Under the pieces are notes generated by a model. It ran no database searches. It was given only the letters and a program-made list of their open reading frames with translations, and had not been told where the DNA came from. From a virus, in IMG/VR virus record IMGVR_UViG_3300025889_018307, positions 1 to 64,000 of that record: a stretch of DNA of 64,000 bases; one strand, 5' to 3'. Positions 23,311-39,212 of this stretch are shown here, piece by piece (the first letter of the stretch is position 1; each line of letters begins with the position of its first letter). The position numbers were made by a program, and so were the translations under genes.

Positions 23311-23312
23311 AT

Positions 23313-23346
23313 TTTGATACCCGGAATATCTTTCGTATATTCCGGG
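23313..23346 (+). promoter_or_regulatory. Early/middle promoter embedded in a 10-bp inverted repeat
   Basis: TTTG-N19-TATATT overlapping cccggaatat-ctttcgt-atattccggg. Confidence 0.7.
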
Positions 23347-23362
23347 AATAAAATCACACCAT

Positions 23363-24394: not shown

Positions 24395-24398
24395 TTAT

Positions 24399-25772
24399 AT
24401 GACATTAACAAATTTAAATTCATATGGAACTAGCTTCCAGATTAAGGTAATTTCTTCTTTATTAACACATAAAGAATTTTTAGTAAACATTAACGATATG
24501 TTAGTTGAAGATTACTTTGATAACCAAGCTCATAAATGGATTATTAAAGAAATACTAAGGTATTATGATAAATATCATACTACACCTTCAATGGAAACAT
24601 TAGCTGTTGAATTACAAAAATGTGGAAATGAAGTTTTACAAATATCTATAAAAGAACAACTTAAGGAAGCTTATAAAAGTTCAAGTGATGATTTAAAATA
24701 TGTACAAGAAGAATTTGCTGCCTTTTGTAAAAATCAACAATTAAAAGGAGCTTTATTACAAAGTGTTGATTTATTAAAAGGTGGGGATTATGAATCTATT
24801 AGATCATTAATTAATAATGCTATTAAAGCTGGACAAGATAAAAATATAGGACATGAATATGCTAAAGACGTTGAATCAAGATATAGAGAAGATAGTAGAA
24901 CGACAATTAAAACCCCTTGGGATAAAATTAATCAATTACTTCAGGGAGGCCTCGGAAATGGAGATTTTGGCCTTATATTTGGTAATCCAGGGGGTGGTAA
25001 ATCTTGGTCGTTAGTTGCATTAGGAGGACATGCGGTTAAATTAGGATATAATGTTTTACATTATACTTTAGAATTAGGAGAACAATATGTAGGAAGAAGA
25101 TATGATGCTTTCTTTTCTAGGATAGGTGTAGATAAAATCCAAAAACATAAAGATAAAATTGAAACCTTAATGAGTGATATAAAAGGAAATTTAATAATAA
25201 AAGAATTTCCTACAGGTAAAGCAACAATTTCTACTATAGAAGCGCATATTCAAAAAGTAAAAGATATGGGAATTGAACCTGATTTAATTATAATTGATTA
25301 TGTTGATCTTCTTTCATCAAAAAGAAGGACTGTCGATCGTAAAGGTGAAATTGATGATATTTATACTAGTACAAAAGGATTAGCTCGTGAGTTAGATATC
25401 CCAGTTTGGAGTGTTTCTCAAGTAAATAGAGCTGGTGCTAAAGATAATATTGTAGAGGGAGATAAAGCAGCTGGATCATATGATAAAATTATGATAACAG
25501 ATGTTTGTATTTCTCTTTCTAGACAACGTAAAGATAAAGTAGAAGGAACGGGAAGATTCCATATTATGAAAAATCGATATGGGATGGATGGATTAACATT
25601 TGGAGTTAAAGCAGATACATCTACAGGACATTTTGAAGTATCTAATGATCTTTATAATGAAGAAGAAGATAGTACTGATAATACTCCAATCCCACAAACC
25701 AATAGTTTTAGTGGAATAGATAAATTTGATAGATCTGAGTTGCAAAAGAAATTTTTTGAATTAAATTCGTAA
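24399..25772 (+). CDS. dnaB: DnaB-like replicative helicase
   Basis: GNPGGGKS, YTLEL, IIIDYVD, SQVNR, KNRYG. Confidence 0.92.
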   Translation: MTLTNLNSYGTSFQIKVISSLLTHKEFLVNINDMLVEDYFDNQAHKWIIKEILRYYDKYHTTPSMETLAVELQKCGNEVLQISIKEQLKEAYKSSSDDLKYVQEEFAAFCKNQQLKGALLQSVDLLKGGDYESIRSLINNAIKAGQDKNIGHEYAKDVESRYREDSRTTIKTPWDKINQLLQGGLGNGDFGLIFGNPGGGKSWSLVALGGHAVKLGYNVLHYTLELGEQYVGRRYDAFFSRIGVDKIQKHKDKIETLMSDIKGNLIIKEFPTGKATISTIEAHIQKVKDMGIEPDLIIIDYVDLLSSKRRTVDRKGEIDDIYTSTKGLARELDIPVWSVSQVNRAGAKDNIVEGDKAAGSYDKIMITDVCISLSRQRKDKVEGTGRFHIMKNRYGMDGLTFGVKADTSTGHFEVSNDLYNEEEDSTDNTPIPQTNSFSGIDKFDRSELQKKFFELNS

Positions 25773-25790
25773 CTTAATAAATAAAATAAA

Positions 25791-26777
25791 ATGGCAAGAA
25801 AAGACATAACAAAAGAAAGAATAGTATATAAACCCTTTGAATATCCAACAGCATTTGATTATTGGTTAAAACAACAACAAGCACATTGGATTCATACAGA
25901 AGTTCCAATGATGAGTGATATTAATGATTGGAAGCAAAATTTAACAGAAACCGAAAAAAATATTATAGGTTCGATTTTAAAGGGATTTGCCCAAACTGAA
26001 ACAGTAGTTAATGATTATTGGACTGGATTAGTTACAAAATGGTTTAGAAAACCAGAAATTATTGCTATGGCAACTGTATTTGGTGCTATGGAAACTATTC
26101 ATGCTGAAGCTTATAGTCTATTAAATGAAGAATTAGGTTTAGATGATTTTTCTGAGTTTTTAGAAGATGAAACCACAATGGCTAAAATTGAAACATTAAT
26201 GAATGTTAGAGATTCATTTAATGGTGAGGTAGATTGGCATGAAAGAGCTAAATCACTAGCTATATTCTCAGCATTTACAGAGGGAGTAAATTTATTTTCA
26301 TCTTTTGCTGTCTTATTATCATTTAAATTAAGAAATAAATTAAAAGGTGTGGGTCAAATTGTTGAATGGTCAATTAGAGATGAGTCAATGCATTCAGATG
26401 CTGGGTGTTGGTTATTTAGAACATTATTAGAAGAAAAACCAGAATTAAAAACACCAGAATTAGAAGCAGCAATTAATGAAGCAGCTTTACTTTCATTACA
26501 ATTAGAGTTAGATTTTATTGAAAAAGTATATGAGATGGGTGATTTAGAAGGTTGTAGTAAAGATGATTTAATTTCATTTATTAAACATAGAGTAAATACT
26601 AAAATGGGTGATTTAGGTTATAGACCTATTGTAAATGGTATTGATGTTAAAGCAGTAGAAAGAATGAAATGGTTTGATCATCTATCAGCTGGAAAACAAC
26701 ATACAGATTTCTTTGCAAATAGAGTAACAAATTATAGTAAAGGAGTACAAGATTGGGATGCGTCCGCAATATTTTAA
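25791..26777 (+). CDS. nrdB: Ribonucleotide reductase class I beta subunit
   Basis: ETIHAEAY, EGVNLFSSF, RDESMH, DFF..RV.NY. Confidence 0.95.
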   Translation: MARKDITKERIVYKPFEYPTAFDYWLKQQQAHWIHTEVPMMSDINDWKQNLTETEKNIIGSILKGFAQTETVVNDYWTGLVTKWFRKPEIIAMATVFGAMETIHAEAYSLLNEELGLDDFSEFLEDETTMAKIETLMNVRDSFNGEVDWHERAKSLAIFSAFTEGVNLFSSFAVLLSFKLRNKLKGVGQIVEWSIRDESMHSDAGCWLFRTLLEEKPELKTPELEAAINEAALLSLQLELDFIEKVYEMGDLEGCSKDDLISFIKHRVNTKMGDLGYRPIVNGIDVKAVERMKWFDHLSAGKQHTDFFANRVTNYSKGVQDWDASAIF

Positions 26778-26788
26778 AAATATAAAAA

Positions 26789-28501
26789 ATGGATAATAAT
26801 AGTTTAGTAGCAGATTACTCCCAATGGGAGAAGGGTAAAGATTACCCTGAATTTATGGATGAAGTAGCTTTATCAACAATTAGCAAAGGATATTTACTAC
26901 CAGGAGAAACACCTAAAAAAGCATATAGAAGAGTTGCTCACGCAGTAGCAATTAGGTTAAATCGCCCTGATTTAGAATCAAAATTCTTTAAATATATTTG
27001 GAATGGTTGGATTGGTTTAGCATCTCCTGTACTTTCAAATACAGGTACAGATAGAGGTTTACCTATTTCTTGCTTTGGTGTTGATACACCTGATTCAATT
27101 AGAGGAATTGGTTTAACTAATGCTGAACTAATGAAATTAACAGCAGCAGGAGGTGGTGTTGGTGTTTCTGTTTCTAGAATTAGACCTAGAGGAGCTGAAA
27201 TTAGGGGTAATGGTAAATCAGAAGGTGTAGTACCTTGGTGTAAGATTTATGATTCTGCTATTATTGCTACTAATCAAGGTAATGTAAGAAGAGGAGCAGC
27301 TTCTGTTAATTTAAAAGTATCTCATCCTGATATTGAAGAGTATTTACAAATTAGAAGACCTAAAGGTGATCCTAATAGACAATGTTTAAATTTACATCAA
27401 TGTGTTGTTGTTGATGATTCATTTATGAGAAAATTAAATGATAGAGATGAAACAGCAATGAAAATATGGTTAGAAATTCTAAAATCAAGAATGGAAACAG
27501 GAGAACCATATATTATGTTTGAAGACAATGTAAATAAAGACAATCCTTTAGCTTATATGATGAATAATCTTAATGTTTCAATGACAAACATTTGCACAGA
27601 AATAACACTCTATACAGATGAGGAGCACTCATTTATATGCTGTTTATCTTCGTTAAATCTTGCAAAATATGATGAATGGAAGGACACAGATGTTATTGAA
27701 ATTGCTACATACTTTTTAGATGGTGTTATGCAAGAATTTATTGATAAAACTAATGGAAAAGAAGCAATGAAGCGTACCCATAAACATGCTAAAAAAGGTA
27801 GAGCATTAGGTTTAGGAATAATGGGTTGGCATACTTTCTTACAAAAGAAAAATCTACCTTTTAATTGTATAGCTTCTACAGCTTGGACTCACACAATAAT
27901 GTCTAAAATTAGAAGTGAAGCAGAAGCAGCATCAAGAAAATTAGCTCAAGAATATGGTGAACCTTTATGGTGTAAAGGAACAGGAATGAGAAATACTCAT
28001 GTTTTAGCTATAGCCCCTACAGTTTCAAATTCAAGAATAGGAGGATGCTCGGCTGGAATTGAACCACAACCAGCAAATGTTTATACTTTTAATGGTGCTA
28101 AAGGTACTTTTATTGTTAAAAATCCAGAACTAGAAAAATTACTAACAGAAAAAGGTAAAAATACAAGTAAAGTTTGGGATCAAATTTTAGCAGATGAAGG
28201 TTCAGTACAAAATTTACCTGCTGATATTTTAACTGAAGATGAAAAAGAAGTATTTTTAACATTTGCGGAAACAAACCAATTAGCATTAGTCCAACAAGCA
28301 GCAATTAGACAAAAATACATTGATCAAACCCAATCACTTAATTTAGCATTTTCTCCAACAGATTCCCCAAAATGGATTAATCAAGTTCATATGGAAGCCT
28401 GGAAATTAGGTGTAAAAACATTATATTATTTAAGAACTGATTCAGTAATTAAAGGAGATTTAGGATCTCGTATGGCTGATTGTGTTTCTTGCGACGGTTA
28501 G
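26789..28501 (+). CDS. nrdA: Ribonucleotide reductase class I alpha subunit (no ATP cone)
   Basis: ISCF, TNICTE, APTVS, C-terminal CVSC. Confidence 0.95.
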   Translation: MDNNSLVADYSQWEKGKDYPEFMDEVALSTISKGYLLPGETPKKAYRRVAHAVAIRLNRPDLESKFFKYIWNGWIGLASPVLSNTGTDRGLPISCFGVDTPDSIRGIGLTNAELMKLTAAGGGVGVSVSRIRPRGAEIRGNGKSEGVVPWCKIYDSAIIATNQGNVRRGAASVNLKVSHPDIEEYLQIRRPKGDPNRQCLNLHQCVVVDDSFMRKLNDRDETAMKIWLEILKSRMETGEPYIMFEDNVNKDNPLAYMMNNLNVSMTNICTEITLYTDEEHSFICCLSSLNLAKYDEWKDTDVIEIATYFLDGVMQEFIDKTNGKEAMKRTHKHAKKGRALGLGIMGWHTFLQKKNLPFNCIASTAWTHTIMSKIRSEAEAASRKLAQEYGEPLWCKGTGMRNTHVLAIAPTVSNSRIGGCSAGIEPQPANVYTFNGAKGTFIVKNPELEKLLTEKGKNTSKVWDQILADEGSVQNLPADILTEDEKEVFLTFAETNQLALVQQAAIRQKYIDQTQSLNLAFSPTDSPKWINQVHMEAWKLGVKTLYYLRTDSVIKGDLGSRMADCVSCDG

Positions 28502-28523
28502 TATACTAGTAGTTATTCCCCAT

Positions 28524-28533
28524 ATATTTATAG
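28524..28533 (+). promoter_or_regulatory. Putative late promoter ATATTTATAG
   Basis: Heads the envelope/lysis block. Confidence 0.6.
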
Positions 28534-28545
28534 TAAAACACTTAT

Positions 28546-28821
28546 ATGGAAAAGTTAACACAATTTTGGAATTGGCTTTTGAATAAGACAACTCTAGACG
28601 AGAAAGCTGTTGAAGTTTATGATGAAGTAAAAGATAGGGCTAAAGAAATGGCTGATGAATTTAAAGATGTAAAAAAAGCTTTAAAAAATGTAGCTACTCA
28701 ATCTAAAGATGTTGTTAATGCTTCTAAAGGTAAAAAACGAAGAGGTAGACCTAAAAAAAACAATACTACTACCTCAGAATGGGAAGCAAATAAGGGTAGA
28801 CCTGCACCTAAAAAGAAATAA
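28546..28821 (+). CDS. Small helical protein with basic RGRP tail
   Basis: 91 aa; KRRGRPKK. Confidence 0.7.
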   Translation: MEKLTQFWNWLLNKTTLDEKAVEVYDEVKDRAKEMADEFKDVKKALKNVATQSKDVVNASKGKKRRGRPKKNNTTTSEWEANKGRPAPKKK

Positions 28822-29909
28822 TGATGAGAAACATATTACTATTACTTTTTCTACTTTTTTCTTTAAATTCTTATTCTCAAAATGAATTAAAGAAAATATT
28901 TAAATTTTCTACATTCTATGCAGCAGTAAACGGAGGAACTTCTCTTTCTAATGTTGATGTTTATTCAGTTACAGATGGTTTAACAACAACTACAATTGAA
29001 ACCCCATTTGATTATACATTAGCATTAGGAGTTAGAAAAATAGCTAGAATGGGTTATGAACCTAAAGAAGCATTTAAAAAGGGTCAAGAAAACTCATTTT
29101 CAGATGCTGCTACTATTGGTAAAGTTAAAGGATTTGAATTTTTATTTGAGGTTGATTATAAAAGACAAGAAGGAATTGAATATTTAGATCAACATCATTT
29201 TTTAAGATATGTATCTGAATGTGGAAATGATAAATGTACTAAACCCATATGTATTAAAAATTTTACTGCTAAAATTGAATATTTACAAGATGGGTTTGCT
29301 GACATAGAATATTTTGAAGCATCAGAGCGTTATAGATACAAATATAATAATAAATTATCATTTAATCTTGGTGCAGTTCAACGTTTATCTGAACCTTATG
29401 GTTATGATCCATTAGAAGAGTGGAAATTATCAAATGGTAATTTGCACTACACATATCTAGCATTAGAAGAAGGTTATAATGTTAATTTTATTTCACATGA
29501 TATTATTCAATATCTAGACCCACAAGGAAATATAGTAGCAGAAAATAATGAAGTTTGGGAAGCAGTAGTTATCCCACAAATATTAGCTGACTATACTGAG
29601 AAAAAAAGAGACCAACAAAACAACACTATACAACATTCATTAGTTATTGGATTTGATTATTATCATTATACTAAAACATTTTGGTTACACTCATGGGGTA
29701 ATTTAATGCCGTGGCATTATGATGGTGGTAGTGAATTTTCATATCATAACTTTAATGATGGTGAACAGTGGTATGATTATTCAGGTGGTTTAATATTTGG
29801 ATACAAATACAATAAAAATTTAGGGGTATTTATAGAAGGAAAATACAATAAATACTGGAATAGAGAGTGGCATGACTTTTCTGTAGGGATGAATTATATA
29901 ATATTTTAA
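28821..29909 (+). CDS. Secreted outer-membrane beta-barrel-like protein
   Basis: Sec signal (ILLLLFLLFSLNSYS-Q), alternating aromatic strands, C-terminal GMNYIIF. Confidence 0.65.
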   Translation: MMRNILLLLFLLFSLNSYSQNELKKIFKFSTFYAAVNGGTSLSNVDVYSVTDGLTTTTIETPFDYTLALGVRKIARMGYEPKEAFKKGQENSFSDAATIGKVKGFEFLFEVDYKRQEGIEYLDQHHFLRYVSECGNDKCTKPICIKNFTAKIEYLQDGFADIEYFEASERYRYKYNNKLSFNLGAVQRLSEPYGYDPLEEWKLSNGNLHYTYLALEEGYNVNFISHDIIQYLDPQGNIVAENNEVWEAVVIPQILADYTEKKRDQQNNTIQHSLVIGFDYYHYTKTFWLHSWGNLMPWHYDGGSEFSYHNFNDGEQWYDYSGGLIFGYKYNKNLGVFIEGKYNKYWNREWHDFSVGMNYIIF

Positions 29910-29912
29910 AAA

Positions 29913-30194
29913 ATGGCAAAAGAATTAAGTGAAAACACAAGTTTTAATGTTAGTATACAAACTCTAGTAGGTATAGGATTTGCCATTACTACAGTAGTAG
30001 GTATGTGGTTTGCATTACAAGCAGATATACAAGAAGCAAAAGAATTACCTGTACCCCCACCTCCAGCTATTACTAGAATGGAATTTGATATGAAAGACCA
30101 ATTAGTAAGACAAACCATTATGGATACTCAAAAAGATGTAGAAGAAATTAAAGAAACTTTAGAAAAAATAGAGGATAAATTATACGGTAGATAA
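29913..30194 (+). CDS. Single-TM coiled-coil protein
   Basis: TM helix, PVPPPP linker, heptads. Confidence 0.7.
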   Translation: MAKELSENTSFNVSIQTLVGIGFAITTVVGMWFALQADIQEAKELPVPPPPAITRMEFDMKDQLVRQTIMDTQKDVEEIKETLEKIEDKLYGR

Positions 30195-30198
30195 TTAT

Positions 30199-30504
30199 AT
30201 GAAATTTTTTAATAAAAATATTTGCTTAACATCACCTACAACTATAATGATTATAGTTGCTTTATTATTCAGTACAATAGTACTTGCTAATGTTTGGTCA
30301 AAAGAAGAAATTAAAATGATAGAAGTTAAAAGTAGTAATGAAGAGGAAATGTGGGTTCCTACTAAAGAAGATATAGCATATCAAGATAGTATGTATGTTA
30401 TAATTAAAAATACTCAAAATGATATAACAGACATTAAAAAAGATATAGTATATATTTTAGAAAGGTTAGATTACGAAGATGGTTCAAGGTGGGAAAATCG
30501 ATAA
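30199..30504 (+). CDS. Single-TM/secreted coiled-coil protein
   Basis: Hydrophobic IMIIVALLFSTIVLA, then a coiled coil. Confidence 0.65.
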   Translation: MKFFNKNICLTSPTTIMIIVALLFSTIVLANVWSKEEIKMIEVKSSNEEEMWVPTKEDIAYQDSMYVIIKNTQNDITDIKKDIVYILERLDYEDGSRWENR

Positions 30505-30521
30505 ACGTAGAAACCAATAAT

Positions 30522-30902
30522 ATGGAAAAAGATTATACATCAATAAAAATATTTGGAGGATATTTATTAATATTACTCCTTATGTTAATTTCAAACACAG
30601 CAAATGGTCAATCTCCTTGTGAAGATGAGGGTTTATGTGTAGTACAATTTAATGCTGGGTTTAATAAAGCAAATAAAGTACTTTGGATTGATGAATTAAA
30701 TGATTGTTCTAAAAAATTTATTGATATTCAAACTGATACTGAAGCAGCAAGTAAATATAAAATAGTAGTTGTTCCTACAATTGTAATATATAGTGATGGA
30801 GAAGAAGTTAGAAGATTTCAGGCAAATATTATGATGCAAATGGAAGCAACTAAAAAAGATGTACAAGAGAAGATTGATGAAATTATAATGTCAGATTTTT
30901 AA
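30522..30902 (+). CDS. Exported thioredoxin-fold protein lacking CxxC
   Basis: Signal peptide; VVQFNAGFN in place of WCxxC; KYKIVVVPT cis-Pro loop; GEEVRRF. ATG 30522 preferred over GTG 30489. Confidence 0.65.
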   Translation: MEKDYTSIKIFGGYLLILLLMLISNTANGQSPCEDEGLCVVQFNAGFNKANKVLWIDELNDCSKKFIDIQTDTEAASKYKIVVVPTIVIYSDGEEVRRFQANIMMQMEATKKDVQEKIDEIIMSDF

Positions 30903-30912
30903 AAATTAAATA

Positions 30913-33906
30913 ATGAAAAAACTACAGTTATTATTACTAACACTTTTAATACCTTTTTTAGGTTACACACAGGGTTCTTGGATTCACATACAATTAATGA
31001 CGGACAATTATCCGTCTGAAACAAGCTGGAATATTACACCTCCTGGTGGTTCACCCATTATTATAGAAAATGGTAGCAATATGCTACCTAATACAATGTA
31101 TGACACTATTGTTCAACTTAGTGGTACAATAATTGCTAGTATATATGATTCTTTTGGTGATGGTTTAGGTTCATCTCAATGGGGTGGAACTGATGGTTGG
31201 TTTATGATTAGTAATTCATGTCAAGATACTTTAATGTATGTTGCAGGAGATTTTGGAGACAGTTTAATACAGACTCTTACTGTTGCTCCCTGCGCCCCAC
31301 CAACAGTTGGTTGTACAGACCCATCTGCATTGAATTATGATTCAACCGCTTATATTTCAGACCCTAGCTCATGTATATTTTCCCCATGTCAGGGTCTTTT
31401 AACTTCTACAGCATCACAAAACTGTTTACCTGGTGGCCAAACACTTGTTATATTTAATTGGACTTTAGATAGTAATACAAATTGTACACCTGTAAAATTT
31501 TGGTATTCAAACGAAAATGGTGTTGGTCCTTTCCAATATGGACTTAATCCTAACGCATTAGATTTTGCAGTTTATGCTGGTAATGGTCAAATGCCACCTA
31601 ATTGGTCAGTAGAACACTATGGTCAAGTTGAATTTTTAGATGGTACTTTATCTGATACTATATTTTATACACCTACTGCTTGTATAGCTGGTTGTACTGA
31701 TCCTACACAAGTATCATACAATCCTTGGGCTACTTATGATGATGGTAGTTGTGCGGGGACAAATTGTGACACAGCAACACAATATCAAATAACAATGGAA
31801 ATTACATTGGACAATTGGCCTGGTGAAACATCATGGATAATGAATAGTTTAGGTGTAGTAGATGAAGCAACCCCGGGAACATATGATTTTAATGATATAG
31901 GTCAAACATATACTTATACTTTTTGTATAGATCAAAACGCAGGATTTGAATTAATTGTAAACGATACTTACGGTGATGGTATGGCTGGTTCTACTTCTGG
32001 TGGTTCTATGGATGGTATGATTGTTATTTATGACTGTAATGGTGATACTATTTGGTATATGGATAATCCTGGATTTGGAAATATATTATATTCAGGACAA
32101 CAATTTGGAACACCTTGTCCTACTATACCCCCAGTTTTAGGATGTACAGATGATGACTATGTAGAATTTAATCCATTAGCTAATGTAGATGATAGTTCAT
32201 GTGTTACACTACACACTTATGGTTGTATAGATTCAACTGCATTTAATTACGATCCAAATGCAACTATAATGGATTTAATACCTGACTGTAATTACTTGTT
32301 AGAAATATTTGATGCAGCAGGAGATGGTTGGGGTAATTCTTATATTGGTGTTTATCAAAATGGTCTTAACCTTGGAACATATACAATGGGTCCTGGTAAT
32401 TATGTTAATTCTTGGAATATTATTTTAGACCCAGGAATTCCAGTAGAAGTATTTTATTTTGAAGTAGGTGGACCACAACAACCACCTCAAGAAGTTCAAT
32501 TCCAAACTTGGCATAATTCATTTAAACTTACAAACGCTGATGGTTTTGTATTAATACATGAAGGTCAAAATCCTTTTGCTAATAATGGTCAAGGAGCACT
32601 ACAAAGCTTTGAAAGTCCATTTTGGACAAAATATGTAGATATACCTTTCTGTGGTAATACTTGCATACCAGTAGTTTTAGGTTGTATGGATACAAATTCA
32701 TTTAATTATGATTCATTAGCAAATGTAGATGATGGTTCATGTATGCCATTCTTATATGGATGTACTAATGTTTTTGCAATAAATTATGATCCACTAGCTA
32801 ATGTTGATGATGGTTCATGCATACCATTTATAAATGGATGTACTGACTCTACAGCAGACAATTATAATTCTCTTGCTAATACTGATGATGGTTCTTGTTA
32901 CTACATTGGTTGTATGGATATAGCTGCTTGTAATTTTGATTCAACAGCGACAGTTAATAATGGATGTCAATATCCAGTACAATATTATGATTGTAATAAT
33001 GTGTGTTTACTGGATTCAGATGGTGATGGTATTTGTGATGAATTAGAAATACCGGGTTGTACTAATCCTATTGCTTTAAACTTTGATATTACAGCAACAG
33101 ACGATGATGGAACATGTATTTTACCAATTTATGGTTGTACTGATCCTTTAGCTTTCAACTACGATCCTTTAGCTAACACAGACAACGGATCTTGCGTACC
33201 TGTAGTATATGGTTGTACTGATCCAACTCAATTTAATTATAATCCACTAGCTAATACAGACAACGGATCTTGTATACCATTTATTTACGGGTGTACTGAT
33301 GCAGCTGCTTTCAATTACGATCCTTTAGCTAATACAAATGACAATAGTTGTTGTTTAATTGCTGGTTGTACTGATCCTTTATCAGTTAACTATAACGAAT
33401 TTGCTTGTTTTGATGATAATTCATGTATAACAGCAGTTCCTGGTTGTACTGATGTTTCAGCTTACAATTACAACCCAGCAGCTAACGTTTCAGATTCAAC
33501 AGCATGTTTATATGATGCTGGTTGTTATGGAGGACCTGGAATACCATATTGGTTAAATGATGGATGTTATGCTTGGGTAATTAGTGTAGATGATTATTGT
33601 TGTACTAACGATTGGGATCCTACATGCCAATCAATGTATGATTATTGTCAATTAGGTTGGCCAACTAATATTCCTGATGTTTCGGCTTTAGGTATAGTTG
33701 TTTATCCTAACCCAACAAGAGGATTAATTCATATAGAAACTAGATTAGAAATAGAAGTTGAAATTTATGATATGACTGGTAAATTATTAATTAAATCTAA
33801 TAATGCTTCTAATAGAATTGATATAAATGATTTCCCTTCAGGTATTTATAATATGACAATAATACATGAAGATAAAAGATATAGTAAAAGAATAATTAAA
33901 AATTAA
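30913..33906 (+). CDS. Cys-rich repeat surface protein with T9SS type A C-terminal sorting domain
   Basis: Sec signal; three D..GDG domains; 14 GC(T/M/I)(D/N)..A.NY-type repeats; C-terminal VYPNP...IYDMTGK...SGIY...KRIIK. Confidence 0.88.
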   Translation: MKKLQLLLLTLLIPFLGYTQGSWIHIQLMTDNYPSETSWNITPPGGSPIIIENGSNMLPNTMYDTIVQLSGTIIASIYDSFGDGLGSSQWGGTDGWFMISNSCQDTLMYVAGDFGDSLIQTLTVAPCAPPTVGCTDPSALNYDSTAYISDPSSCIFSPCQGLLTSTASQNCLPGGQTLVIFNWTLDSNTNCTPVKFWYSNENGVGPFQYGLNPNALDFAVYAGNGQMPPNWSVEHYGQVEFLDGTLSDTIFYTPTACIAGCTDPTQVSYNPWATYDDGSCAGTNCDTATQYQITMEITLDNWPGETSWIMNSLGVVDEATPGTYDFNDIGQTYTYTFCIDQNAGFELIVNDTYGDGMAGSTSGGSMDGMIVIYDCNGDTIWYMDNPGFGNILYSGQQFGTPCPTIPPVLGCTDDDYVEFNPLANVDDSSCVTLHTYGCIDSTAFNYDPNATIMDLIPDCNYLLEIFDAAGDGWGNSYIGVYQNGLNLGTYTMGPGNYVNSWNIILDPGIPVEVFYFEVGGPQQPPQEVQFQTWHNSFKLTNADGFVLIHEGQNPFANNGQGALQSFESPFWTKYVDIPFCGNTCIPVVLGCMDTNSFNYDSLANVDDGSCMPFLYGCTNVFAINYDPLANVDDGSCIPFINGCTDSTADNYNSLANTDDGSCYYIGCMDIAACNFDSTATVNNGCQYPVQYYDCNNVCLLDSDGDGICDELEIPGCTNPIALNFDITATDDDGTCILPIYGCTDPLAFNYDPLANTDNGSCVPVVYGCTDPTQFNYNPLANTDNGSCIPFIYGCTDAAAFNYDPLANTNDNSCCLIAGCTDPLSVNYNEFACFDDNSCITAVPGCTDVSAYNYNPAANVSDSTACLYDAGCYGGPGIPYWLNDGCYAWVISVDDYCCTNDWDPTCQSMYDYCQLGWPTNIPDVSALGIVVYPNPTRGLIHIETRLEIEVEIYDMTGKLLIKSNNASNRIDINDFPSGIYNMTIIHEDKRYSKRIIKN

Positions 33907-33910
33907 AACT

Positions 33911-34135
33911 ATGAGTTGGAAAGAAATTTTTAAAGATGAAAATGAATATAATGAAAAATCTATAGTTGGTTTCATTGCATTCCTAATGATGGTAGTTGTA
34001 ATGGTAGCTGATTTAATAACAGGATGGATTGGAAAAGACTTAGTAATAAATGAATATATTTATGATTCATTTGTAATAGTAGTACTGGGATGTTTTGGTA
34101 TTGCTGGTTTAGAAAAATTCGCAAACAGAAAATAA
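33911..34135 (+). CDS. Two-TM membrane protein (holin-like)
   Basis: 74 aa, two TM helices, near the lysin. Confidence 0.5.
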   Translation: MSWKEIFKDENEYNEKSIVGFIAFLMMVVVMVADLITGWIGKDLVINEYIYDSFVIVVLGCFGIAGLEKFANRK

Positions 34136-34136
34136 T

Positions 34137-34976
34137 ATGAAAGAATTAAAAAACTTTAGAGCATTTCTTAATGAAGCTAATCCAGATGGAACTGTTTCCC
34201 AAGGTGAAGAAAAACAAGCACAAGCTGTAATTGATCAATTTACTAGACAATTAATGGTTGAAATGAATAAAGCTGTAAAAGCTTTAGAACAAGTAGGAGG
34301 ATCATTTAGATCACCAGGGTATAAATTAGATTTATATAAAGCTGTAGATCAAATAGTTAATCAATTTAAACCTTCATATTTAGCTGAAGGTCATAGTTTA
34401 AGTGACTCTGACATAGATTATTTAGAAGATTTTATTAATAGATCATCAAATGAAGATAATGTAATATTAAGACGTATTATTAAAAACATTATCAAAACTA
34501 ATATTAAACCTGTAAAAGAACAAAAAACAATTACAGAATTTGTTGGTAAAGAATTAGAAGATAGAAACGAACCTTTATATGATAAATTAGTACCTGGACA
34601 AGGAGATGCTGAAACTATAGAAGGTGAAATGCTAAGAGCTATTAATAGAATTGTTTATCGTTTTTATAATGATGGAGATAAATATTTTGAAGGGTATGGT
34701 ACTGAAACAGCAGGTCCTGCCCATTCATTTTTAGTTAATGCAAATCATCCTTTAAAATCAGCAATGGTTAAACTTTTTGATGAACCATCTGGAGATAATT
34801 CTTATGAAAGAATGCTTAAAGATGTATTAGATATGATTTTAGACTACATTGAATCAAGACAAGGTAAATATACTAAAAATACATTAGGTGGTATATTTGA
34901 CTATGAACCTGAATTTGAAGATGATGAAGAGGATTATGATGATTATGATTATTATGATGATGAAGACGATTATTAA
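34137..34976 (+). CDS. Putative internal head protein (modular)
   Basis: MKELKNFRAFLNEA; repeated [LIV]xE sites; LVPGQG...EGEMLRA..RI.YRFYNDGD domain; acidic tail. Confidence 0.5.
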   Translation: MKELKNFRAFLNEANPDGTVSQGEEKQAQAVIDQFTRQLMVEMNKAVKALEQVGGSFRSPGYKLDLYKAVDQIVNQFKPSYLAEGHSLSDSDIDYLEDFINRSSNEDNVILRRIIKNIIKTNIKPVKEQKTITEFVGKELEDRNEPLYDKLVPGQGDAETIEGEMLRAINRIVYRFYNDGDKYFEGYGTETAGPAHSFLVNANHPLKSAMVKLFDEPSGDNSYERMLKDVLDMILDYIESRQGKYTKNTLGGIFDYEPEFEDDEEDYDDYDYYDDEDDY

Positions 34977-34987
34977 TATTTAAAATT

Positions 34988-35596
34988 ATGGACTGTTATA
35001 CAAGAGAACAAATAGAAAATGCTATGGCTTCAAAAGGCTATAGATATTTTAAATCAGGAGATCTTAACCTTAATATTATAGGAGTTAGAAATTCAGAAAC
35101 AAAAAATAGAGTCACAAATGCTTTTGATGATTGTATTACTTTATCTTATAAATTAGATGGTGAATGGAAATTTCATTGTTTTAAATGTACAACAGATCCA
35201 GGAACTCATTGGGTTGAAAATTTACTTAATCCTAATGGAGTAGCAATATTAAAACCAAATCAATATAGAGGTTCTCACAAAATAGGTTTACATCAAGGTA
35301 AATATGAAGCATTAAGACAACAAAAACCATTAGAAGTTTATCGTGATGATAACCAGGATGGGATTTATGATTGTTTAGAAGAAGATGTTGAAAATGGTAT
35401 TTTTGGAATTAACATTCATAGAGCAACAGCTAAAACTGGGGGCAAATCAACAAGAATAGATAAATGGTCAGCTGGTTGTCAAGTAATAGCATCAAATGAT
35501 GATTTTGCTGTGTTTATGAAAATATGTAATCAAGCAAAAGATCTTTGGGGTAATTCATTTACTTATACTCTTATTGAGTCAAAAGATATTATTTAA
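34988..35596 (+). CDS. Putative endolysin, YkuD/L,D-transpeptidase-like
   Basis: LNIIGVR, TTDPG, GINIHRA...WSAGCQV His/Cys motif. Confidence 0.65.
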   Translation: MDCYTREQIENAMASKGYRYFKSGDLNLNIIGVRNSETKNRVTNAFDDCITLSYKLDGEWKFHCFKCTTDPGTHWVENLLNPNGVAILKPNQYRGSHKIGLHQGKYEALRQQKPLEVYRDDNQDGIYDCLEEDVENGIFGINIHRATAKTGGKSTRIDKWSAGCQVIASNDDFAVFMKICNQAKDLWGNSFTYTLIESKDII

Positions 35597-35610
35597 TTAA
35601 AATTTAAGTT

Positions 35611-36816
35611 ATGTGGAAAAATATCCAAGTAAGATTATTTCCTCTGTTAATTGCATTTTCTGCATTATCAGTTTCATTATCAGCAGCATTTTATTCAATT
35701 AGTGGTTTAAGTAAATTATTTGCAGGAGCTGCACTTGCTGTCATAATAATGGCTGCATCATTAGAAATAGCTAAATTAGTTATAGCATCTCTTTTATATC
35801 AATATAGAAAGACACTACCTAAATTATTAAAATATTATTTATCTATAGCCTGTGTAGTATTAATTTTAATCACTTCTATGGGGATTTATGGGTTTTTATC
35901 TGCAGCCTATCAAGAAACAGCTGCAAAAGCCGGAAATATAGATGCACAAATTACTTTAATAGAAACTAAAAGAGATAATATAAAAGAACAGTTAATTGTA
36001 TATAATGAAGAAAAATCAAGTATAAATAAATCCGTAACGAGCTTACGTAATGGTTTAAGTAACAATATAATACAGTATACAGACACAAGTGGTAATATAG
36101 TTACAACAACTTCATCATCAACACGTAGAGCTTTAGAAAAACAATTAGATCAAGCTATTGAAAGACAAACAATAATAAATTCTAAAGTTGATGATTTGAA
36201 CGATAAAATATTTCAATATGAAACTGAAATAGTTGAAGTAAGAACTAGTGATGCTGTTTCTAGTGAGTTAGGTCCTTTAAAATATCTATCGGGATTAACT
36301 GGAACTCCTATGGACAAAATCATTAATTGGCTACTTTTAACCATTATTTTTGTATTTGATCCCCTAGCAATTGCTTTAGTAGTAGCAGCTAATTTTGCTT
36401 TTGATCAAATTAAATCACCTAAATTTATTCCCCAACCTATAAGGATAAGACAGCCTAAAAAGGTAAAAATGTCAGTTCCTGAAGGTATGGAGTTTGATAA
36501 AGAATATCCAATACCATCTGAAGATTTAAAACAACGAGTAAAAGAAAACCAAGAAAAATTAAAAGTAGTAATCCCAATGCCTCCTAATAGATATTTTCCA
36601 GAAGAAAAAAGAATGGATGTTATAGGCCAAAACGGAAATGATGGGTTACATTATGATAAGTATGATTTAAATAAAGATGGGATAATTGATAAAGAAGAAG
36701 AAAATTATAGAAATGCTGTAGAAGCATTAAAAAAAGAAAAATCAGATGGGGGATGGGATTCTAATTGGTATGCTGAAAAACTCTCAAAAATTCCAAAACC
36801 ACCCTCAAAATCTTAA
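35611..36816 (+). CDS. Multi-TM coiled-coil membrane protein (possibly lysis-related)
   Basis: Three N-terminal TM helices, long coiled coil, ELGPLKY, IIFVFDPLA TM helix, EF-hand-like DLNKDGIIDKEE. Confidence 0.7.
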   Translation: MWKNIQVRLFPLLIAFSALSVSLSAAFYSISGLSKLFAGAALAVIIMAASLEIAKLVIASLLYQYRKTLPKLLKYYLSIACVVLILITSMGIYGFLSAAYQETAAKAGNIDAQITLIETKRDNIKEQLIVYNEEKSSINKSVTSLRNGLSNNIIQYTDTSGNIVTTTSSSTRRALEKQLDQAIERQTIINSKVDDLNDKIFQYETEIVEVRTSDAVSSELGPLKYLSGLTGTPMDKIINWLLLTIIFVFDPLAIALVVAANFAFDQIKSPKFIPQPIRIRQPKKVKMSVPEGMEFDKEYPIPSEDLKQRVKENQEKLKVVIPMPPNRYFPEEKRMDVIGQNGNDGLHYDKYDLNKDGIIDKEEENYRNAVEALKKEKSDGGWDSNWYAEKLSKIPKPPSKS

Positions 36817-36819
36817 TAA

Positions 36820-37011
36820 GTGAAAGAATTTATTAAATTTGTACTAATTTGGATTAGTCAACAATTAGCTATTCCATTTTGGATAGTAGGTCATATTCAT
36901 TTATCATTAAATACTTATGGAGATATTAAAGAAATAATTGCATCTTTGGGTATGAATATATTAGTTGCTATAGGATTTTGGTTAGATTGGTTGAAGACTT
37001 CCCGTAAATGA
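36820..37011 (+). CDS. Small membrane protein
   Basis: 63 aa, hydrophobic, GTG start. Confidence 0.6.
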   Translation: MKEFIKFVLIWISQQLAIPFWIVGHIHLSLNTYGDIKEIIASLGMNILVAIGFWLDWLKTSRK

Positions 37012-37012
37012 T

Positions 37013-37041
37013 TTGGAAAAGCAAGATATCTTTCGTATATT
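37013..37041 (+). promoter_or_regulatory. Early/middle promoter TTGG-N19-TATATT
   Basis: ttggaaaagcaagatatctttcgtatatt. Confidence 0.8.
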
Positions 37042-37062
37042 TATCCTATAAATAAAAATAAT

Positions 37063-37476
37063 ATGAGTAGAGGTAGACCATCAGAAAATATAGTTCACAA
37101 AACTAAATATAAATTAGAATTTTTAGAATATCCTTCAAAACCAGAATTGGGTAGTAAATCTATTTGGCATTTTGATGATAAAAAATCTAAAAATGGTGCT
37201 TATAAAGTAGAACAATTTCCCCCTAAAGGAGAACGAACAGAAAAAATTAAAATAGAAAAAGGTAAGGCATATGGAAAAATGCCTGTTGTTATGGCTTTTA
37301 AAACATCAAATCGTTCTAATGCTAAAACTAAAATAAAAGTATGGAATAATGAAAATATTGATTATATTTTAACAGCTAAAAAACTACCAGGTGTTCCTGA
37401 AAAAGCAATTATATTAGATATTGGTGTAGGTTCATCATTTGTTGAGGAATATAGTAAAAAATATAATCTAGCTTAA
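37063..37476 (+). CDS. Basic hypothetical protein
   Basis: 137 aa, MSRGRP start, own promoter. Confidence 0.7.
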   Translation: MSRGRPSENIVHKTKYKLEFLEYPSKPELGSKSIWHFDDKKSKNGAYKVEQFPPKGERTEKIKIEKGKAYGKMPVVMAFKTSNRSNAKTKIKVWNNENIDYILTAKKLPGVPEKAIILDIGVGSSFVEEYSKKYNLA

Positions 37477-37483
37477 TTTTCAC

Positions 37484-37493
37484 ATATTTATAA
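37484..37493 (+). promoter_or_regulatory. Putative late promoter ATATTTATAA
   Basis: catatttataacaaaa, same context as at 3900. Confidence 0.7.
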
Positions 37494-37507
37494 CAAAATA
37501 TAAAAAC

Positions 37508-38227: not shown

Positions 38228-38233
38228 AATAAT

Positions 38234-38998: not shown

Positions 38999-39004
38999 AA
39001 ATAA

Positions 39005-39186
39005 TTATGAACCACGCATTGTTCATAGATGCGTGAGTTTCTCAACTTAGTGTGGCTATGCGAATTTAAATTCGTATATTGCATAAATACATTTTGGAAA
39101 AAATGTTAAAGGATGCCACACGAAAAGTGGCATTCGCTACGTTTTTCCAAAAAGTATAAAAGTATATATGGGACGGTCCCATATAT
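39005..39186 (+). ncRNA. Candidate structured RNA / regulatory leader
   Basis: Several stems, whose mismatches mostly read as G-U on the + strand (see findings). Confidence 0.45.
39052..39080 (+). promoter_or_regulatory. Early/middle promoter GTGG-N19-TATATT
   Basis: gtggctatgcgaatttaaattcgtatatt. Confidence 0.65.
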
Positions 39187-39212
39187 TTATTTGTTTAATT
39201 AAAATCAAAAAA

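What the first reader, a model, noticed from the sequence alone, without database searches (positions are those of the whole stretch)
28524..34135. Phage-encoded T9SS cargo with its own outer-membrane barrel and exported Trx-fold partner: candidate host-surface remodelling system
Seen: one tightly packed run behind a late-type motif. It encodes a signal-peptide beta-barrel (28821), two single-TM coiled-coil proteins, an exported CxxC-less thioredoxin fold, and a 997-aa protein with a Sec signal, 14 Cys-bracketed GCTD..A.NY..DDGSC-type repeats, three D..GDG domains and a VYPNP...G.Y...K.IK C-terminus. Established: that C-terminus is the type A sorting signal of the Bacteroidota T9SS, which exports and surface-anchors cargo. 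Inference: a lytic phage uses the host T9SS to display an acidic, disulfide-rich adhesin-like protein on the infected cell, with the barrel and Trx-fold protein as anchor or folding helpers. Possible roles are superinfection or grazer shielding, aggregation with new hosts, or jamming of T9SS/gliding. I know of no described phage system of this kind.
Basis: partly seen in the sequence, partly recalled or inferred. Interest (0 to 1): 0.82.

Follow-up and report, generated by a model that had tools for sequence, protein, structure and literature searches.

The report
Phage lysis operon carrying T9SS cargo
An uncultured marine phage of Bacteroidota carries, in one late operon with its cell-bursting genes, a large surface-type protein addressed to its host's type IX secretion system, and the small proteins thought to be its helpers turn out to be a conserved, untested part of phage lysis cassettes.

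Summary
Observation confirmed. All ORFs, the 14 Cys repeats, the three GDG domains, the CxxC-less thioredoxin fold, the outer-membrane barrel and a recurring late-type motif are present. The 997-aa protein ends in a T9SS type A sorting domain (TIGR04183, 51.6 bits against a cut-off of 23).

Interpretation partly supported. Phage-encoded T9SS cargo is already in print (Bellas 2020), so that idea is not new.

The proposed helpers do not behave as cargo helpers. The tm93 plus dead-thioredoxin pair is adjacent in 66 of 70 distinct loci from other, smaller phages. No cargo gene was detected in those loci and only one partial barrel hit. In 41 of the 66, an endolysin follows directly. This is the position where spanins usually sit.

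In the window, the tightly packed run continues to 36816 and includes a holin-like and an endolysin-like gene.

The barrel is phage-specific, found in 2 of 301 genomes of one bacterial order (Flavobacteriales by the centre MAG's title) against 104 of 301 for cargo-type domains. It always travels with the cargo (16 of 16 unbiased loci). All 66 scorable loci show rotations of one cyclic order, barrel-tm93-trx-cargo. The barrel's role is unresolved.

This scan found the same set earlier on other DNA; I reached this reading before seeing those notes.

The parts
28524..28537 (+). Late-type promoter-like motif ATATTTATAGTAAA, 8 nt before the g91 start codon
   Evidence: 7 exact matches in the window, all on the + strand and upstream of genes including the tail sheath gene. 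With <=1 mismatch, 11 matches against 2.46 +/- 1.51 expected (gaps listed). Conserved only in the nearest relatives: before g91 in 2 of the 7 loci that have g91, and before g239 in 4 of 6.
28546..28821 (+). g91: Lys/Arg-rich 91-aa protein with no hydrophobic segment; first gene of the run; function unknown
   Evidence: Only sub-threshold Pfam hits, including AT_hook at E 0.053. Found near the module in some related loci and between trx and an M15 endolysin in L292.
28821..29909 (+). Phage-specific outer-membrane beta-barrel (362 aa): N-terminal signal-like segment, 12 long strands, conserved insert at residues 191-268 with a long helix, C-terminal Phe
   Evidence: AF2 pLDDT 78.4, pTM 0.73. Foldseek top hit NanC, E 2e-5, TMq 0.36. 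VIA Z 10-11 to TamA barrel, OmpG, NanC, Tsx. No Pfam, NCBIfam or PHROG hit. 481 relatives in viral contigs. 418 clusters in 1.84 billion proteins. 2 of 301 genomes searched in the order of G001.
29913..30194 (+). tm93: one N-terminal TM segment, then a Pro-rich linker and a conserved C-terminal helix (class II, i-spanin-like topology); conserved lysis-cassette gene
   Evidence: Hydropathy and 81-sequence consensus; alignment A6. Adjacent to trx in 66 of 70 distinct loci of other phages. Weak PHROG 1009 hit, E 0.004.
30199..30504 (+). tm101: second single-TM protein, possibly a distant paralogue of tm93; present in only a subset of relatives
   Evidence: BLASTP against tm93: E 0.003, 23% identity over 82 aa, same topology. 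Hit in 8 of 99 distinct barrel loci.
30489..30902 (+). trx: exported thioredoxin-fold protein without the CxxC site (FNAGFNKAN in the window; FNAxWNxAN in the family consensus), cis-Pro loop VPT kept, no lipobox; conserved partner of tm93
   Evidence: Profile against PDB thioredoxin 2vim, E 1.6e-9, with a gap at CGPC; alignment A2. Sub-threshold Pfam and NCBIfam thioredoxin hits. In genomes of G001's order, scores above 60 bits occur only on phage-like contigs.
30913..33906 (+). Cargo: 997-aa acidic, Cys-rich protein. Signal-like N-terminus, beta-sandwich domains with three D.xGDG sites, 14 two-Cys repeats, a Cys-rich module, and a T9SS type A sorting domain
   Evidence: AF2 of residues 22-590: pLDDT 77.2, all-beta. 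Foldseek matches are FN3/Ig arrays, an adhesin and phage tail proteins, with no enzyme fold. BFVD top hits are uncultured-virus proteins, one named 'Secretion system C-terminal sorting domain-containing protein'.
33700..33903 (+). T9SS type A C-terminal sorting domain of the cargo (residues 930-997)
   Evidence: TIGR04183 6.7e-14, 51.6 bits against cut-off 23; PF18962 50.4 bits against 27; 58.1 bits.
33911..34135 (+). tm74: 74-aa protein with two hydrophobic segments; holin candidate
   Evidence: Hydropathy. In 11 of the 17 related loci holding both genes, lys202 starts within 1 kb after tm74. No significant family hit.
34137..34976 (+). g279: 279-aa protein with an acidic C-terminus, function unknown; in the same packed run
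   Evidence: No significant family hit.
34988..35596 (+). lys202: endolysin-like protein
   Evidence: phrog_3000 8.7e-36 (function unknown) and phrog_33083 'endolysin' 6.3e-17. No Pfam hit. No PDB sequence match at E<=1.
35611..36816 (+). g401: multi-TM plus coiled-coil protein, last gene of the packed run; follows lys202 in related loci
   Evidence: Only sub-threshold hits.

Best explanation
The stretch is the first two thirds of one late, tightly packed operon (28546-36816) in which an uncultured marine Bacteroidota myovirus groups its envelope-directed genes. It has four kinds of part.

(1) The 997-aa protein is a T9SS type A substrate. It is built from beta-sandwich and two-Cys repeat modules that are common in large proteins of the sampled bacterial order (Flavobacteriales by the centre MAG's title). 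The infected cell would export it through Sec and then its own T9SS late in infection. No enzyme fold is seen, so a binding or coating role is most likely.

(2) tm93 (inner-membrane anchor with a periplasmic helix) and the redox-dead periplasmic thioredoxin-fold protein are not cargo helpers. They are a fixed pair that belongs to the lysis cassettes of many marine phages. They sit where spanins normally sit, next to interchangeable endolysins and a holin. I infer that they act on the envelope at lysis, most likely in breaching or releasing the outer membrane.

(3) tm74 and lys202 are the holin-like and endolysin-like genes of the same operon.

(4) The 12-stranded outer-membrane barrel is specific to this phage lineage. 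It is either the outer-membrane partner of the tm93-trx pair (about 40%), a cognate partner of the cargo analogous to PorP/SprF shuttles (about 35%), or something else (about 25%).

Shown here: domain identities, folds, linkage and distribution. Inferred: export route, timing, lysis role and all protein contacts.
For: Cargo. CTD hits are well above the curated cut-offs. It has a signal-like N-terminus and the acidic, Cys-rich make-up described. The model is all-beta with no enzyme match. Cargo-type domains occur in 104 of 301 genomes of G001's order.

Operon. All gaps from g91 to g401 are 14 nt or less, behind a motif shared with the tail sheath gene.

tm93-trx pair. In loci fetched with two divergent homologues, HMMs found 93 tm93, 89 trx, 1 partial barrel and 0 cargo-tail hits. 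Of 70 distinct loci, 66 have tm93 directly followed by trx. Of those 66, 41 are followed by an endolysin, and 33 of them also by the holin. The endolysins are Peptidase_M15_3 (two clusters) or Amidase_2, and the holin is phrog_3427 at 2.1e-17. The first such case was G157:C58.

Window lineage. lys202 is present in 11 of 32 loci with >=6 kb on both sides.

Barrel. It is phage-restricted: 2 of 301 genomes. The 6 genome-contig hits are MAG contigs, 5 of which carry the whole module. The nearest Atlas clusters are 100% viral.

Linkage. 16 of 16 loci fetched by the barrel alone, with >=5 kb left and >=6 kb right, have tm93, trx and a cargo-family gene. All 66 scorable loci are rotations of the cyclic order B-T-X-C: 31 BTXC, 25 CBTX, 10 TXCB.

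Expression. RNA-library contigs from two studies cover pieces of the barrel, trx, cargo and tm74 genes. This is weak evidence.
Against: No experiment exists for any part.

trx has no lipobox, so the pair fails the definition of a two-component spanin. The periplasmic part of tm93 is only about 58 residues, which is short for spanning the periplasm.

In 25 of the 66 adjacent pairs the next gene is not an endolysin: tail tube in 11, RNR on the other strand in 4, the remainder other genes or a contig end. In the window's own lineage only 11 of 32 well-flanked loci show lys202 nearby.

All window-lineage loci are kin (barrel identity 56-93%), so their shared linkage is partly inheritance.

A sub-group of the cargo family ends in a ~45-aa short tail with no Pfam or NCBIfam sorting-domain hit. 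The T9SS route is therefore not shown for the whole family.

My cargo-tail HMM was built from this family only and could miss unrelated T9SS cargo in the smaller phages.

Barrel distances track the cargo C-terminus (r 0.68) at least as well as tm93 (0.55) or trx (0.65), which does not favour the lysis-partner reading of the barrel.

The host is unknown. The RNA contigs may be DNA carry-over.
Confidence: 0.6

Rival explanations
1. All five proteins form one host-surface remodelling system: the cargo is displayed via the T9SS, the barrel anchors it, and the Trx-fold and TM proteins help it fold or dock.
For: The four genes are always linked in this lineage and keep one cyclic order. A Cys-rich cargo beside a thioredoxin fold is suggestive. 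Barrel divergence correlates with the cargo C-terminus, r 0.68.
Against: tm93-trx occurs as a pair in 66 of 70 distinct loci of other phages, with no cargo-tail hit and only one partial barrel hit, next to endolysins and a holin. The trx lacks both Cys and cannot do redox chemistry.
Confidence: 0.12
2. The barrel is the cargo's own shuttle or anchor, working like the PorP/SprF proteins that pair with type B cargo. Cargo plus barrel would then be a two-gene add-on placed in or beside the lysis cassette.
For: In F. johnsoniae a porP/sprF-like gene lies directly downstream of type B cargo genes and is needed in matching amounts (PMC12618676, passages read). Here the barrel lies directly after the cargo in 35 of 66 loci (CBTX plus TXCB). 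Barrel and cargo co-occur in 36 of 36 well-flanked loci. The partial correlation barrel-cargoC given tm93 is 0.59, against 0.39 for barrel-tm93 given cargoC.
Against: The window's sorting domain is type A, which according to that paper is handled by the common PorV shuttle. There is no PF11751 or PorV hit. hhalign against PorP/SprF gives probability 43%, but only over the signal peptide and N-terminal 81 columns; against PorV it gives 3%. In 31 of 66 loci tm93 and trx lie between barrel and cargo. The co-occurrence may be plain kinship.
Confidence: 0.35
3. tm93-trx are not outer-membrane disruptors. They are lysis-timing or exclusion factors (antiholin-like, or blocking superinfection at the envelope) that merely sit in the lysis cassette.
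For: trx has no lipobox and the tm93 periplasmic domain is short. In 11 loci the pair lies before tail genes and not before an endolysin. Small TM proteins near holins are often regulators (own knowledge).
Against: The pair stays constant while the endolysin type changes between M15 and amidase, as expected of a core lysis function. In my reading, none of the neighbour clusters that were annotated looked like a canonical spanin. I ran no dedicated spanin search.
Confidence: 0.25
4. The 997-aa protein is not a working T9SS substrate in infection. It would be a virion-associated fibre or a decaying acquired host gene.
For: The fold search returns phage tail and fibre proteins among the beta-sandwich matches. 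Part of the family has lost the full sorting domain.
Against: A signal-like N-terminus plus an intact C-terminal sorting domain is kept in many homologues at 60-89% identity. The ORF is intact at 997 aa. The Cys pattern is invariant across 52 aligned homologues, which argues for purifying selection on an exported, disulfide-bonded protein.
Confidence: 0.08

Closest known systems
Phage-encoded T9SS type A cargo of 'Cryophage' (Bellas et al. 2020, Nat Commun, PMC7468147; passages read)
   Same: Phage genes whose products carry T9SS type A sorting domains, read as a hijack of the host T9SS. The genes are variable between phage variants.
   Different: The Cryophage cargo is enzymes plus a PA14 protein, in flexible islands of a glacier phage. 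Here the cargo is a non-enzymatic Cys-repeat beta-sandwich protein, fixed beside a barrel and lysis genes, in an abundant marine lineage (481 barrel relatives in viral contigs).
Type B cargo with cognate PorP/SprF-like shuttle (F. johnsoniae; PMC12618676, passages read; PMC9143113, search listing only)
   Same: A large adhesin-like T9SS substrate gene with an outer-membrane barrel gene directly downstream (35 of 66 loci here).
   Different: The sorting domain here is type A. The barrel has no PF11751 hit and no convincing profile match. The pair is phage-borne.
Two-component spanins (lambda Rz/Rz1 type; Kongari et al. 2018, PMC6139136, passages read)
   Same: tm93 has the class II topology with a helical periplasmic domain. 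It lies in lysis cassettes next to an endolysin and a holin, and is paired with a second exported protein.
   Different: The partner is a soluble-looking thioredoxin fold without a lipobox, not an outer-membrane lipoprotein. The genes are neither embedded nor overlapped. No sequence relation was tested or seen. Function is untested.
Late-expressed accessory genes beside lysis cassettes of lambdoid phages (stx, bor, lom; recalled from my own knowledge, no call)
   Same: A host-interaction gene placed under late control next to the lysis genes, so that it is made just before lysis.
   Different: This is a different phage group and host phylum, with export through the T9SS. The gene is fixed in the lineage and not sporadic.

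Membership tests
T9SS type A substrate (Por_Secre_tail cargo) | C-terminal domain matching TIGR04183 / PF18962 above the curated cut-off, at the very C-terminus | tested here: met
   51.6 bits (cut-off 23) and 50.4 bits (cut-off 27) at residues 930-997 of 997; 58.1 bits.
T9SS type A substrate (Por_Secre_tail cargo) | N-terminal Sec signal peptide | tested here: inconclusive
   The N-terminus MKKLQLLLLTLLIPFLGYTQG has a basic start and a hydrophobic core. This was judged by eye, with no signal-peptide predictor available. The same pattern is seen in homologues.
T9SS type A substrate (Por_Secre_tail cargo) | Host possesses a T9SS; export and CTD removal depend on it | not testable with these tools
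   The host is unknown. PorV and PorP/SprF genes were each found in 35 of 41 genomes of G001's order searched, which shows only that likely hosts have the system.
PorP/SprF shuttle family (PF11751) | Match to the PorP_SprF profile | tested here: not met
   No Pfam hit at E<=0.1. hhalign of the barrel alignment against 20 PorP/SprF sequences gives probability 43% over 81 N-terminal columns that include the signal peptide. The PorP-versus-PorV control reached only 50%, so power at this distance is low.
PorP/SprF shuttle family (PF11751) | Gene directly downstream of a type B CTD cargo gene | tested here: not met
   The barrel follows the cargo in 35 of 66 loci, but the cargo's domain is type A. 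The only type C model hit was weak (E 0.017, below cut-off), and no type B model appeared among the hits at E<=0.1.
PorV (T9SS_OM_PorV, NF033710) | Match to the PorV profile | tested here: not met
   No NCBIfam hit. hhalign probability 3%. FadL appears only at Z 8.4, among many barrel types.
Two-component spanin | i-spanin: class II inner-membrane protein with a helical periplasmic domain | tested here: inconclusive
   tm93 has one N-terminal hydrophobic segment followed by a conserved helical C-terminal part. Topology is inferred, and the periplasmic part is only about 58 aa.
Two-component spanin | o-spanin: outer-membrane lipoprotein with a lipobox Cys | tested here: not met
   The trx signal region ends ..GQ, and most homologues have no Cys after it. 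No other small lipoprotein gene was noticed in the run.
Two-component spanin | Location in the lysis cassette with holin and endolysin | tested here: met
   41 of 66 adjacent tm93-trx pairs are followed by an endolysin, 33 of them also by the holin. In the window they share one packed run with tm74 and lys202.
Thioredoxin (active) | Thioredoxin fold with a CxxC active site | tested here: not met
   The fold is supported by the profile match (E 1.6e-9). The CxxC position is a gap (window FNAGFNKAN; consensus FNAxWNxAN) in the 64 sequences, and the Pfam score of 19.8 is below the cut-off of 23.5.

The most novel reading that the evidence does not exclude
Phages of marine Bacteroidota use a so far undescribed outer-membrane-breaching device in place of classical spanins. 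It would be an inner-membrane coiled-coil protein plus a redox-dead periplasmic thioredoxin. In this myovirus lineage it is extended by a phage-made outer-membrane barrel. The T9SS cargo would be loaded onto the outer membrane through that barrel just before lysis, so that the bursting cell and its debris carry a phage-chosen coat.
Probability: 0.2. Interest if true: 0.85.

Novelty: new variant of a known kind. Interest (0 to 1): 0.62.

Why it matters
Two things would matter if this holds.

First, it is largely unknown how phages of Bacteroidota get through the outer membrane at lysis. Spanins were recognised in only a few cultured flavobacterial phages (PMC8776804, passages read). A pair that stays fixed while the neighbouring endolysin type changes is a concrete, testable candidate for that step.

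Second, the cargo shows that an abundant ocean phage lineage has its host make a host-style surface protein late in infection. This extends the single earlier report of phage T9SS cargo to the marine Flavobacteriia that recycle algal carbon. Changes to the surface of infected cells there could affect particle attachment and phage spread.

Tried and rejected
Barrel as a known T9SS part. There were no Pfam, NCBIfam or PHROG hits, and no PDB sequence match to the profile at E<=10. Fold matches were generic only. Ten distant family members had no Pfam domain. hhalign against PorP/SprF and PorV was unconvincing.

Barrel in cultured phages. No tblastn match in 50,697 records. The same held for a tm93 homologue. 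The window's trx hit only ordinary Streptomyces-phage thioredoxins.

Cargo in cultured phages. One 59-residue match only.

Bacterial barrel homologue (G060:C35). It sits among housekeeping genes and gives no functional clue.

P0256, a distant barrel relative. No viral locus was found for it.

lys202. No PDB sequence match and no Pfam hit.

Integrase. None in the 84-kb record, which is only about 52% complete, so 'lytic' is not shown.

Late motif in relatives. My first test looked in the wrong place. The redone test found the exact motif only in the nearest kin.

Partial Mantel test. All four genes are inter-correlated, so it does not decide the barrel's partner.

RNA runs. Contigs cannot rank genes or prove transcription. 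X3 is labelled freshwater, and I draw no habitat conclusion from it.

Literature. Searches found no paper describing this gene set or a thioredoxin-fold lysis protein in Bacteroidota phages. PMC7198788 and PMC5332604 hold none of the terms I looked for that would bear on it. The library lacks most subscription journals. I did not open supplementary files; SI file 7 of PMC8776804 (lysis gene lists) and the supplements of PMC7468147 may bear on these claims.

I did not see the barrel-tm93-trx trio without cargo, which earlier scan notes report. In my data the barrel always had a cargo-family neighbour where flanks allowed.

Full report
WHAT IS THERE

The window is the first 64 kb of an 84,310-bp IMG/VR viral record rated 52% complete. 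Almost all genes lie on the + strand. It encodes a tail sheath, DnaB-type helicase, DNA polymerase, ligase and GroEL, class I RNR just upstream of the finding, and one tRNA-Gln. No integrase was found in the record, but the record is incomplete. The nearest DNA matches are large phages of Flavobacterium, Cellulophaga and Bacteroides, and only over RNR and the lysin-like gene.

The 997-aa protein has 52 Cys, D+E 115 against K+R 15, three D.xGDG sites and 14 GC[TMI][DN] repeat units. It ends in a domain that scores 51.6 bits on TIGR04183 (cut-off 23) and 50.4 bits on PF18962 (cut-off 27).

THE OPERON IS LONGER THAN REPORTED

Gaps between successive genes from g91 (28546) to g401 (ends 36816) run from -16 to +14 nt, and the next gap is 246 nt. 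The packed run thus also holds g279, the endolysin-like lys202 (phrog_33083 'endolysin' 6.3e-17 and phrog_3000 8.7e-36) and g401.

Eight bases before its first gene lies ATATTTATAGTAAA. The pattern ATATTTATARYAAA has 7 exact copies in the window. All are on the + strand and directly before genes, one of them the tail sheath gene. With one mismatch allowed there are 11 copies against 2.46 +/- 1.51 in shuffles. 'Late-type' is an inference from this shared use with structural genes. The exact motif is kept only in the nearest relatives.

THE PARTS

Barrel. A 69-sequence alignment gave an AF2 model with pLDDT 78.4 and pTM 0.73. It has twelve long strands and a conserved insert (residues 191-268) that holds a 23-residue helix. 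Foldseek and VIA-align return many unrelated outer-membrane barrel classes at similar scores: NanC at E 2e-5 and TMq 0.36, and Z 10-11 for TamA barrel, OmpG, NanC and Tsx. It is an outer-membrane barrel of no recognisable family. There are no HMM hits and no PDB sequence match. Ten distant members also have no Pfam domain.

Trx. A 64-sequence alignment (consensus FNAxWNxAN; the window's copy reads FNAGFNKAN) shows this motif in place of the thioredoxin active site, a conserved VPT loop and a signal-like N-terminus without a lipobox. Its profile matches thioredoxins in the PDB (2vim, E 1.6e-9), with a gap at CGPC.

tm93. It has one hydrophobic segment, a Pro-rich linker and a strongly conserved helical tail. 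tm101 is weakly similar to it (E 0.003). tm74 has two hydrophobic segments.

Cargo N-terminal 569 residues. The model (pLDDT 77.2) is a string of beta-sandwich domains. PDB matches are FN3/Ig arrays, a Ca2+-stabilised adhesin and the T5 tail tip, with no enzyme fold. In the viral structure library the best matches are proteins of uncultured marine viruses, one already auto-named 'Secretion system C-terminal sorting domain-containing protein'.

DISTRIBUTION

The cargo family is large. 7,229 of the 8,000 scored candidates had E<=0.001, and many homologues at 60-89% identity lie on contigs of 50-170 kb. The viral-contig scan gave 59 loci.

The barrel has 481 relatives in viral contigs, of which the best 80 were kept, and 418 clusters in the 1.84-billion-protein library. 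Its nearest Atlas clusters are 100% viral. There is no match in 50,697 deposited phage genomes.

In about 185,000 species genomes a pattern scan found 6 loci. All are in MAGs of incompatible taxonomy (Rickettsiales, Nitrosopelagicus, Parvibaculum, Sphingobacteriales, Flavobacteriales and an unnamed bin). Five of the six carry the whole module, and the sixth holds only the barrel's end at the locus edge. I read these as mis-binned phage contigs.

A six-frame search of 301 genomes of the order of G001 (a MAG titled Flavobacteriales) gave a sharp contrast:
- Cargo-type domains: 104 of 301 genomes, inside proteins of 600 to over 7,000 aa.
- Barrel profile: 2 of 301. One is the mis-binned phage contig. 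The other is a distant 404-aa chromosomal homologue in G060, among housekeeping genes.
- trx profile: scores above 60 bits in only three genomes, all on phage-like or tiny contigs; the remaining hits, at 34 bits or less, are ordinary thioredoxins.
- tm93 profile: 4 of 301.

LINKAGE IN THE WINDOW'S LINEAGE

I mapped the window's proteins onto all fetched loci and called ORFs. Barrel, tm93, trx and a cargo-family gene were all present in 36 of 36 distinct loci with at least 5 kb left and 6 kb right of the barrel. Many of those loci were fetched with the cargo itself, so I recounted on loci fetched by the barrel alone. The result was 16 of 16. With only 3 kb of flank required it was 24 of 26, and the two misses have about 3.2 kb on the right.

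Gene order is not fixed, but all 66 scorable loci are rotations of one cycle, barrel-tm93-trx-cargo: 31 BTXC (the window's order), 25 CBTX and 10 TXCB. tm93-trx is never split. Flanking genes differ between loci: RNR, a 2,300-2,650-aa ORF, the lysin, and others.

These loci are kin (barrel identity 56-93%), so part of this linkage is inheritance.

THE RESULT THAT CHANGED THE READING

The tm93 and trx hits in G157 lie side by side on a 9.4-kb contig of a different, smaller phage. No cargo gene is on the contig, and the ~550 bp upstream of the pair hold no barrel before the contig ends. A 154-aa ORF directly downstream resembles, by eye, an M15-type endolysin.

Using that trx and another divergent tm93 as queries, I fetched 93 further viral loci. 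HMMs built from my alignments found 93 tm93, 89 trx, 1 partial barrel and 0 cargo-tail hits in them.

After removing duplicates, 70 loci remain. In 66 of these, tm93 is directly followed by trx. Of those 66:
- 41 have an endolysin within the next two genes, and 33 of these also have the holin.
- 11 have tail-tube genes next.
- 4 have RNR on the other strand.
- The rest have other genes or the contig ends.

The endolysins fall into three clusters of two families: Peptidase_M15_3 (two clusters) and Amidase_2. The holin is phrog_3427 at 2.1e-17. The large upstream genes carry the tail-fibre-type Peptidase_S74 chaperone domain.

The pair is therefore a constant element of lysis cassettes in which the endolysin is exchangeable, and it does not need the cargo or the barrel. 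This removes the basis for calling trx and the TM proteins cargo helpers. It also agrees with the window's own operon, which contains tm74 and lys202. In the window's lineage the lysin is nearby in 11 of 32 well-flanked loci. In 11 of the 17 loci holding both genes it starts within 1 kb after tm74.

WHAT THE PAIR MAY DO

Classical two-component spanins are a class II inner-membrane protein with a helical periplasmic domain plus an outer-membrane lipoprotein. 91 of 677 surveyed phages had none (PMC6139136, passages read). In cultured flavobacterial phages, spanins were recognised in only a few (PMC8776804, passages read).

tm93 fits the i-spanin topology and the cassette position. trx has no lipobox, so the pair is not a member of that family. 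That the pair acts on the outer membrane at lysis is my inference from position and predicted localisation. A timing or exclusion role is a live rival.

THE BARREL

Two readings remain.

It could be the outer-membrane end of the tm93-trx device, since it is contiguous with tm93 in 56 of 66 loci.

Or it could be a cognate partner of the cargo. In F. johnsoniae a PorP/SprF-like shuttle gene lies directly downstream of type B cargo genes and is needed in matching amounts, whereas type A cargo uses PorV (PMC12618676, passages read). Here the barrel directly follows the cargo in 35 of 66 loci.

I tested membership. From genomes of G001's order I fetched 20 PorP/SprF and 15 PorV sequences (each family present in 35 of 41 genomes searched). 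hhalign of the barrel against PorP/SprF gave probability 43%, but only over the signal peptide and the next residues. Against PorV it gave 3%. The PorP-versus-PorV control reached just 50%. No membership can be claimed.

A partial Mantel test on 64 loci left all genes inter-correlated: barrel-cargoC 0.68, barrel-trx 0.65, barrel-tm93 0.55; partials were 0.59 for barrel-cargoC given tm93 and 0.39 for barrel-tm93 given cargoC. It does not decide the matter.

THE CARGO'S TAIL IS NOT UNIFORM

Some family members keep the signal-like N-terminus, the repeats and the Cys-rich pre-tail module, but end in a ~45-aa tail that resembles the last strands of the sorting domain. These give no Pfam or NCBIfam sorting-domain hit: 10 of 10 tested in Pfam and 9 of 9 in NCBIfam. 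Similar tails end bacterial secreted proteins in G060. Two members carry MAM domains. The T9SS route is thus supported for the window's protein, but not shown for the whole family.

EXPRESSION

Four metatranscriptome runs from two studies hold contigs over every or nearly every 533-nt bin of 24000-40000. They include pieces inside the barrel, trx, cargo and tm74 genes, some with no differences from the window. The tool warns that DNA may be present in RNA libraries and that contigs cannot rank genes. I count this as weak support only.

COMPARISON WITH WHAT IS KNOWN

Phage-encoded T9SS type A cargo, with the hijack idea, was published for 'Cryophage' (PMC7468147), so the cargo is a new member of a known kind. 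My searches and two marine Bacteroidetes-virus papers turned up no description of the fixed cargo-barrel-tm93-trx set, nor of the tm93-trx pair as a lysis-cassette element.

Earlier follow-up reports of this scan, on other genomes, describe the same set and also place it by the lysis genes. I saw them only.

VERDICT

The most valuable lead is the lysis-linked tm93-trx pair, together with the open question of what the phage-specific barrel serves.

Noticed in passing
window 23311-23362, 36817-37062, 43040-43082, 54000-54070: A second recurring upstream motif, (A/T)TNTTTCGTATATT, marks a different set of intergenic gaps from the late-type motif. It may be another promoter class of this phage.
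   Followed up: no
L050:7713-9866, L092:4487-7162, L102:10488-12320 and others; bacterial L155:3461-5326, L155:1065-3155: Cargo-family proteins, and some bacterial secreted proteins of a Flavobacteriales MAG, end in a ~45-aa short tail (..DLLGR..LFYIY.DGS..KK..) in place of a full type A sorting domain. They give no Pfam or NCBIfam hit. This may be a shortened sorting signal.
   Followed up: partly
L056:1826-5767: A related phage encodes a 1,314-aa protein with SprB repeats (PF13573, 5.7e-21), the repeat of the flavobacterial gliding adhesin, next to the module.
   Followed up: no
L079:46-7953 and similar ORFs in about 30 loci: A sub-lineage has a 2,300-2,650-aa ORF directly upstream of the barrel. 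In L079 it carries an AAA_33/Zeta-toxin-like kinase domain at residues 1596-1753.
   Followed up: no
L154:9379-10590 (G060:C35): A distant 404-aa barrel homologue (profile E 3.1e-39, about 28% identity) lies in a true bacterial chromosome context, which I named by eye from N-terminal sequences as PrsA, L25 and Pth, together with Pfam-confirmed S9 peptidase, GT2 and HAD genes. This rare cellular relative could hint at the barrel's origin.
   Followed up: partly
L246, L247: Tandem duplications of the tm93-trx pair (tm93 trx tm93 trx tm93) occur in some smaller phages.
   Followed up: no
L139-L143 (genome contigs): Phage contigs carrying this module are binned into MAGs labelled Parvibaculum, Sphingobacteriales, Candidatus Nitrosopelagicus (an archaeon), Flavobacteriales and Rickettsiales. 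This is probable bin contamination in public MAGs.
   Followed up: partly
window 34988-35596: lys202 contains H..(16)..SAGC, which by my recollection resembles the YkuD-type L,D-transpeptidase catalytic motif. It has no Pfam or PDB sequence match and may be an unusual cell-wall enzyme.
   Followed up: partly
window 54705-56339 and 46236-46308: The phage encodes a full-length GroEL (phrog_5725, 1.7e-152) and a tRNA-Gln(ttg).
   Followed up: no
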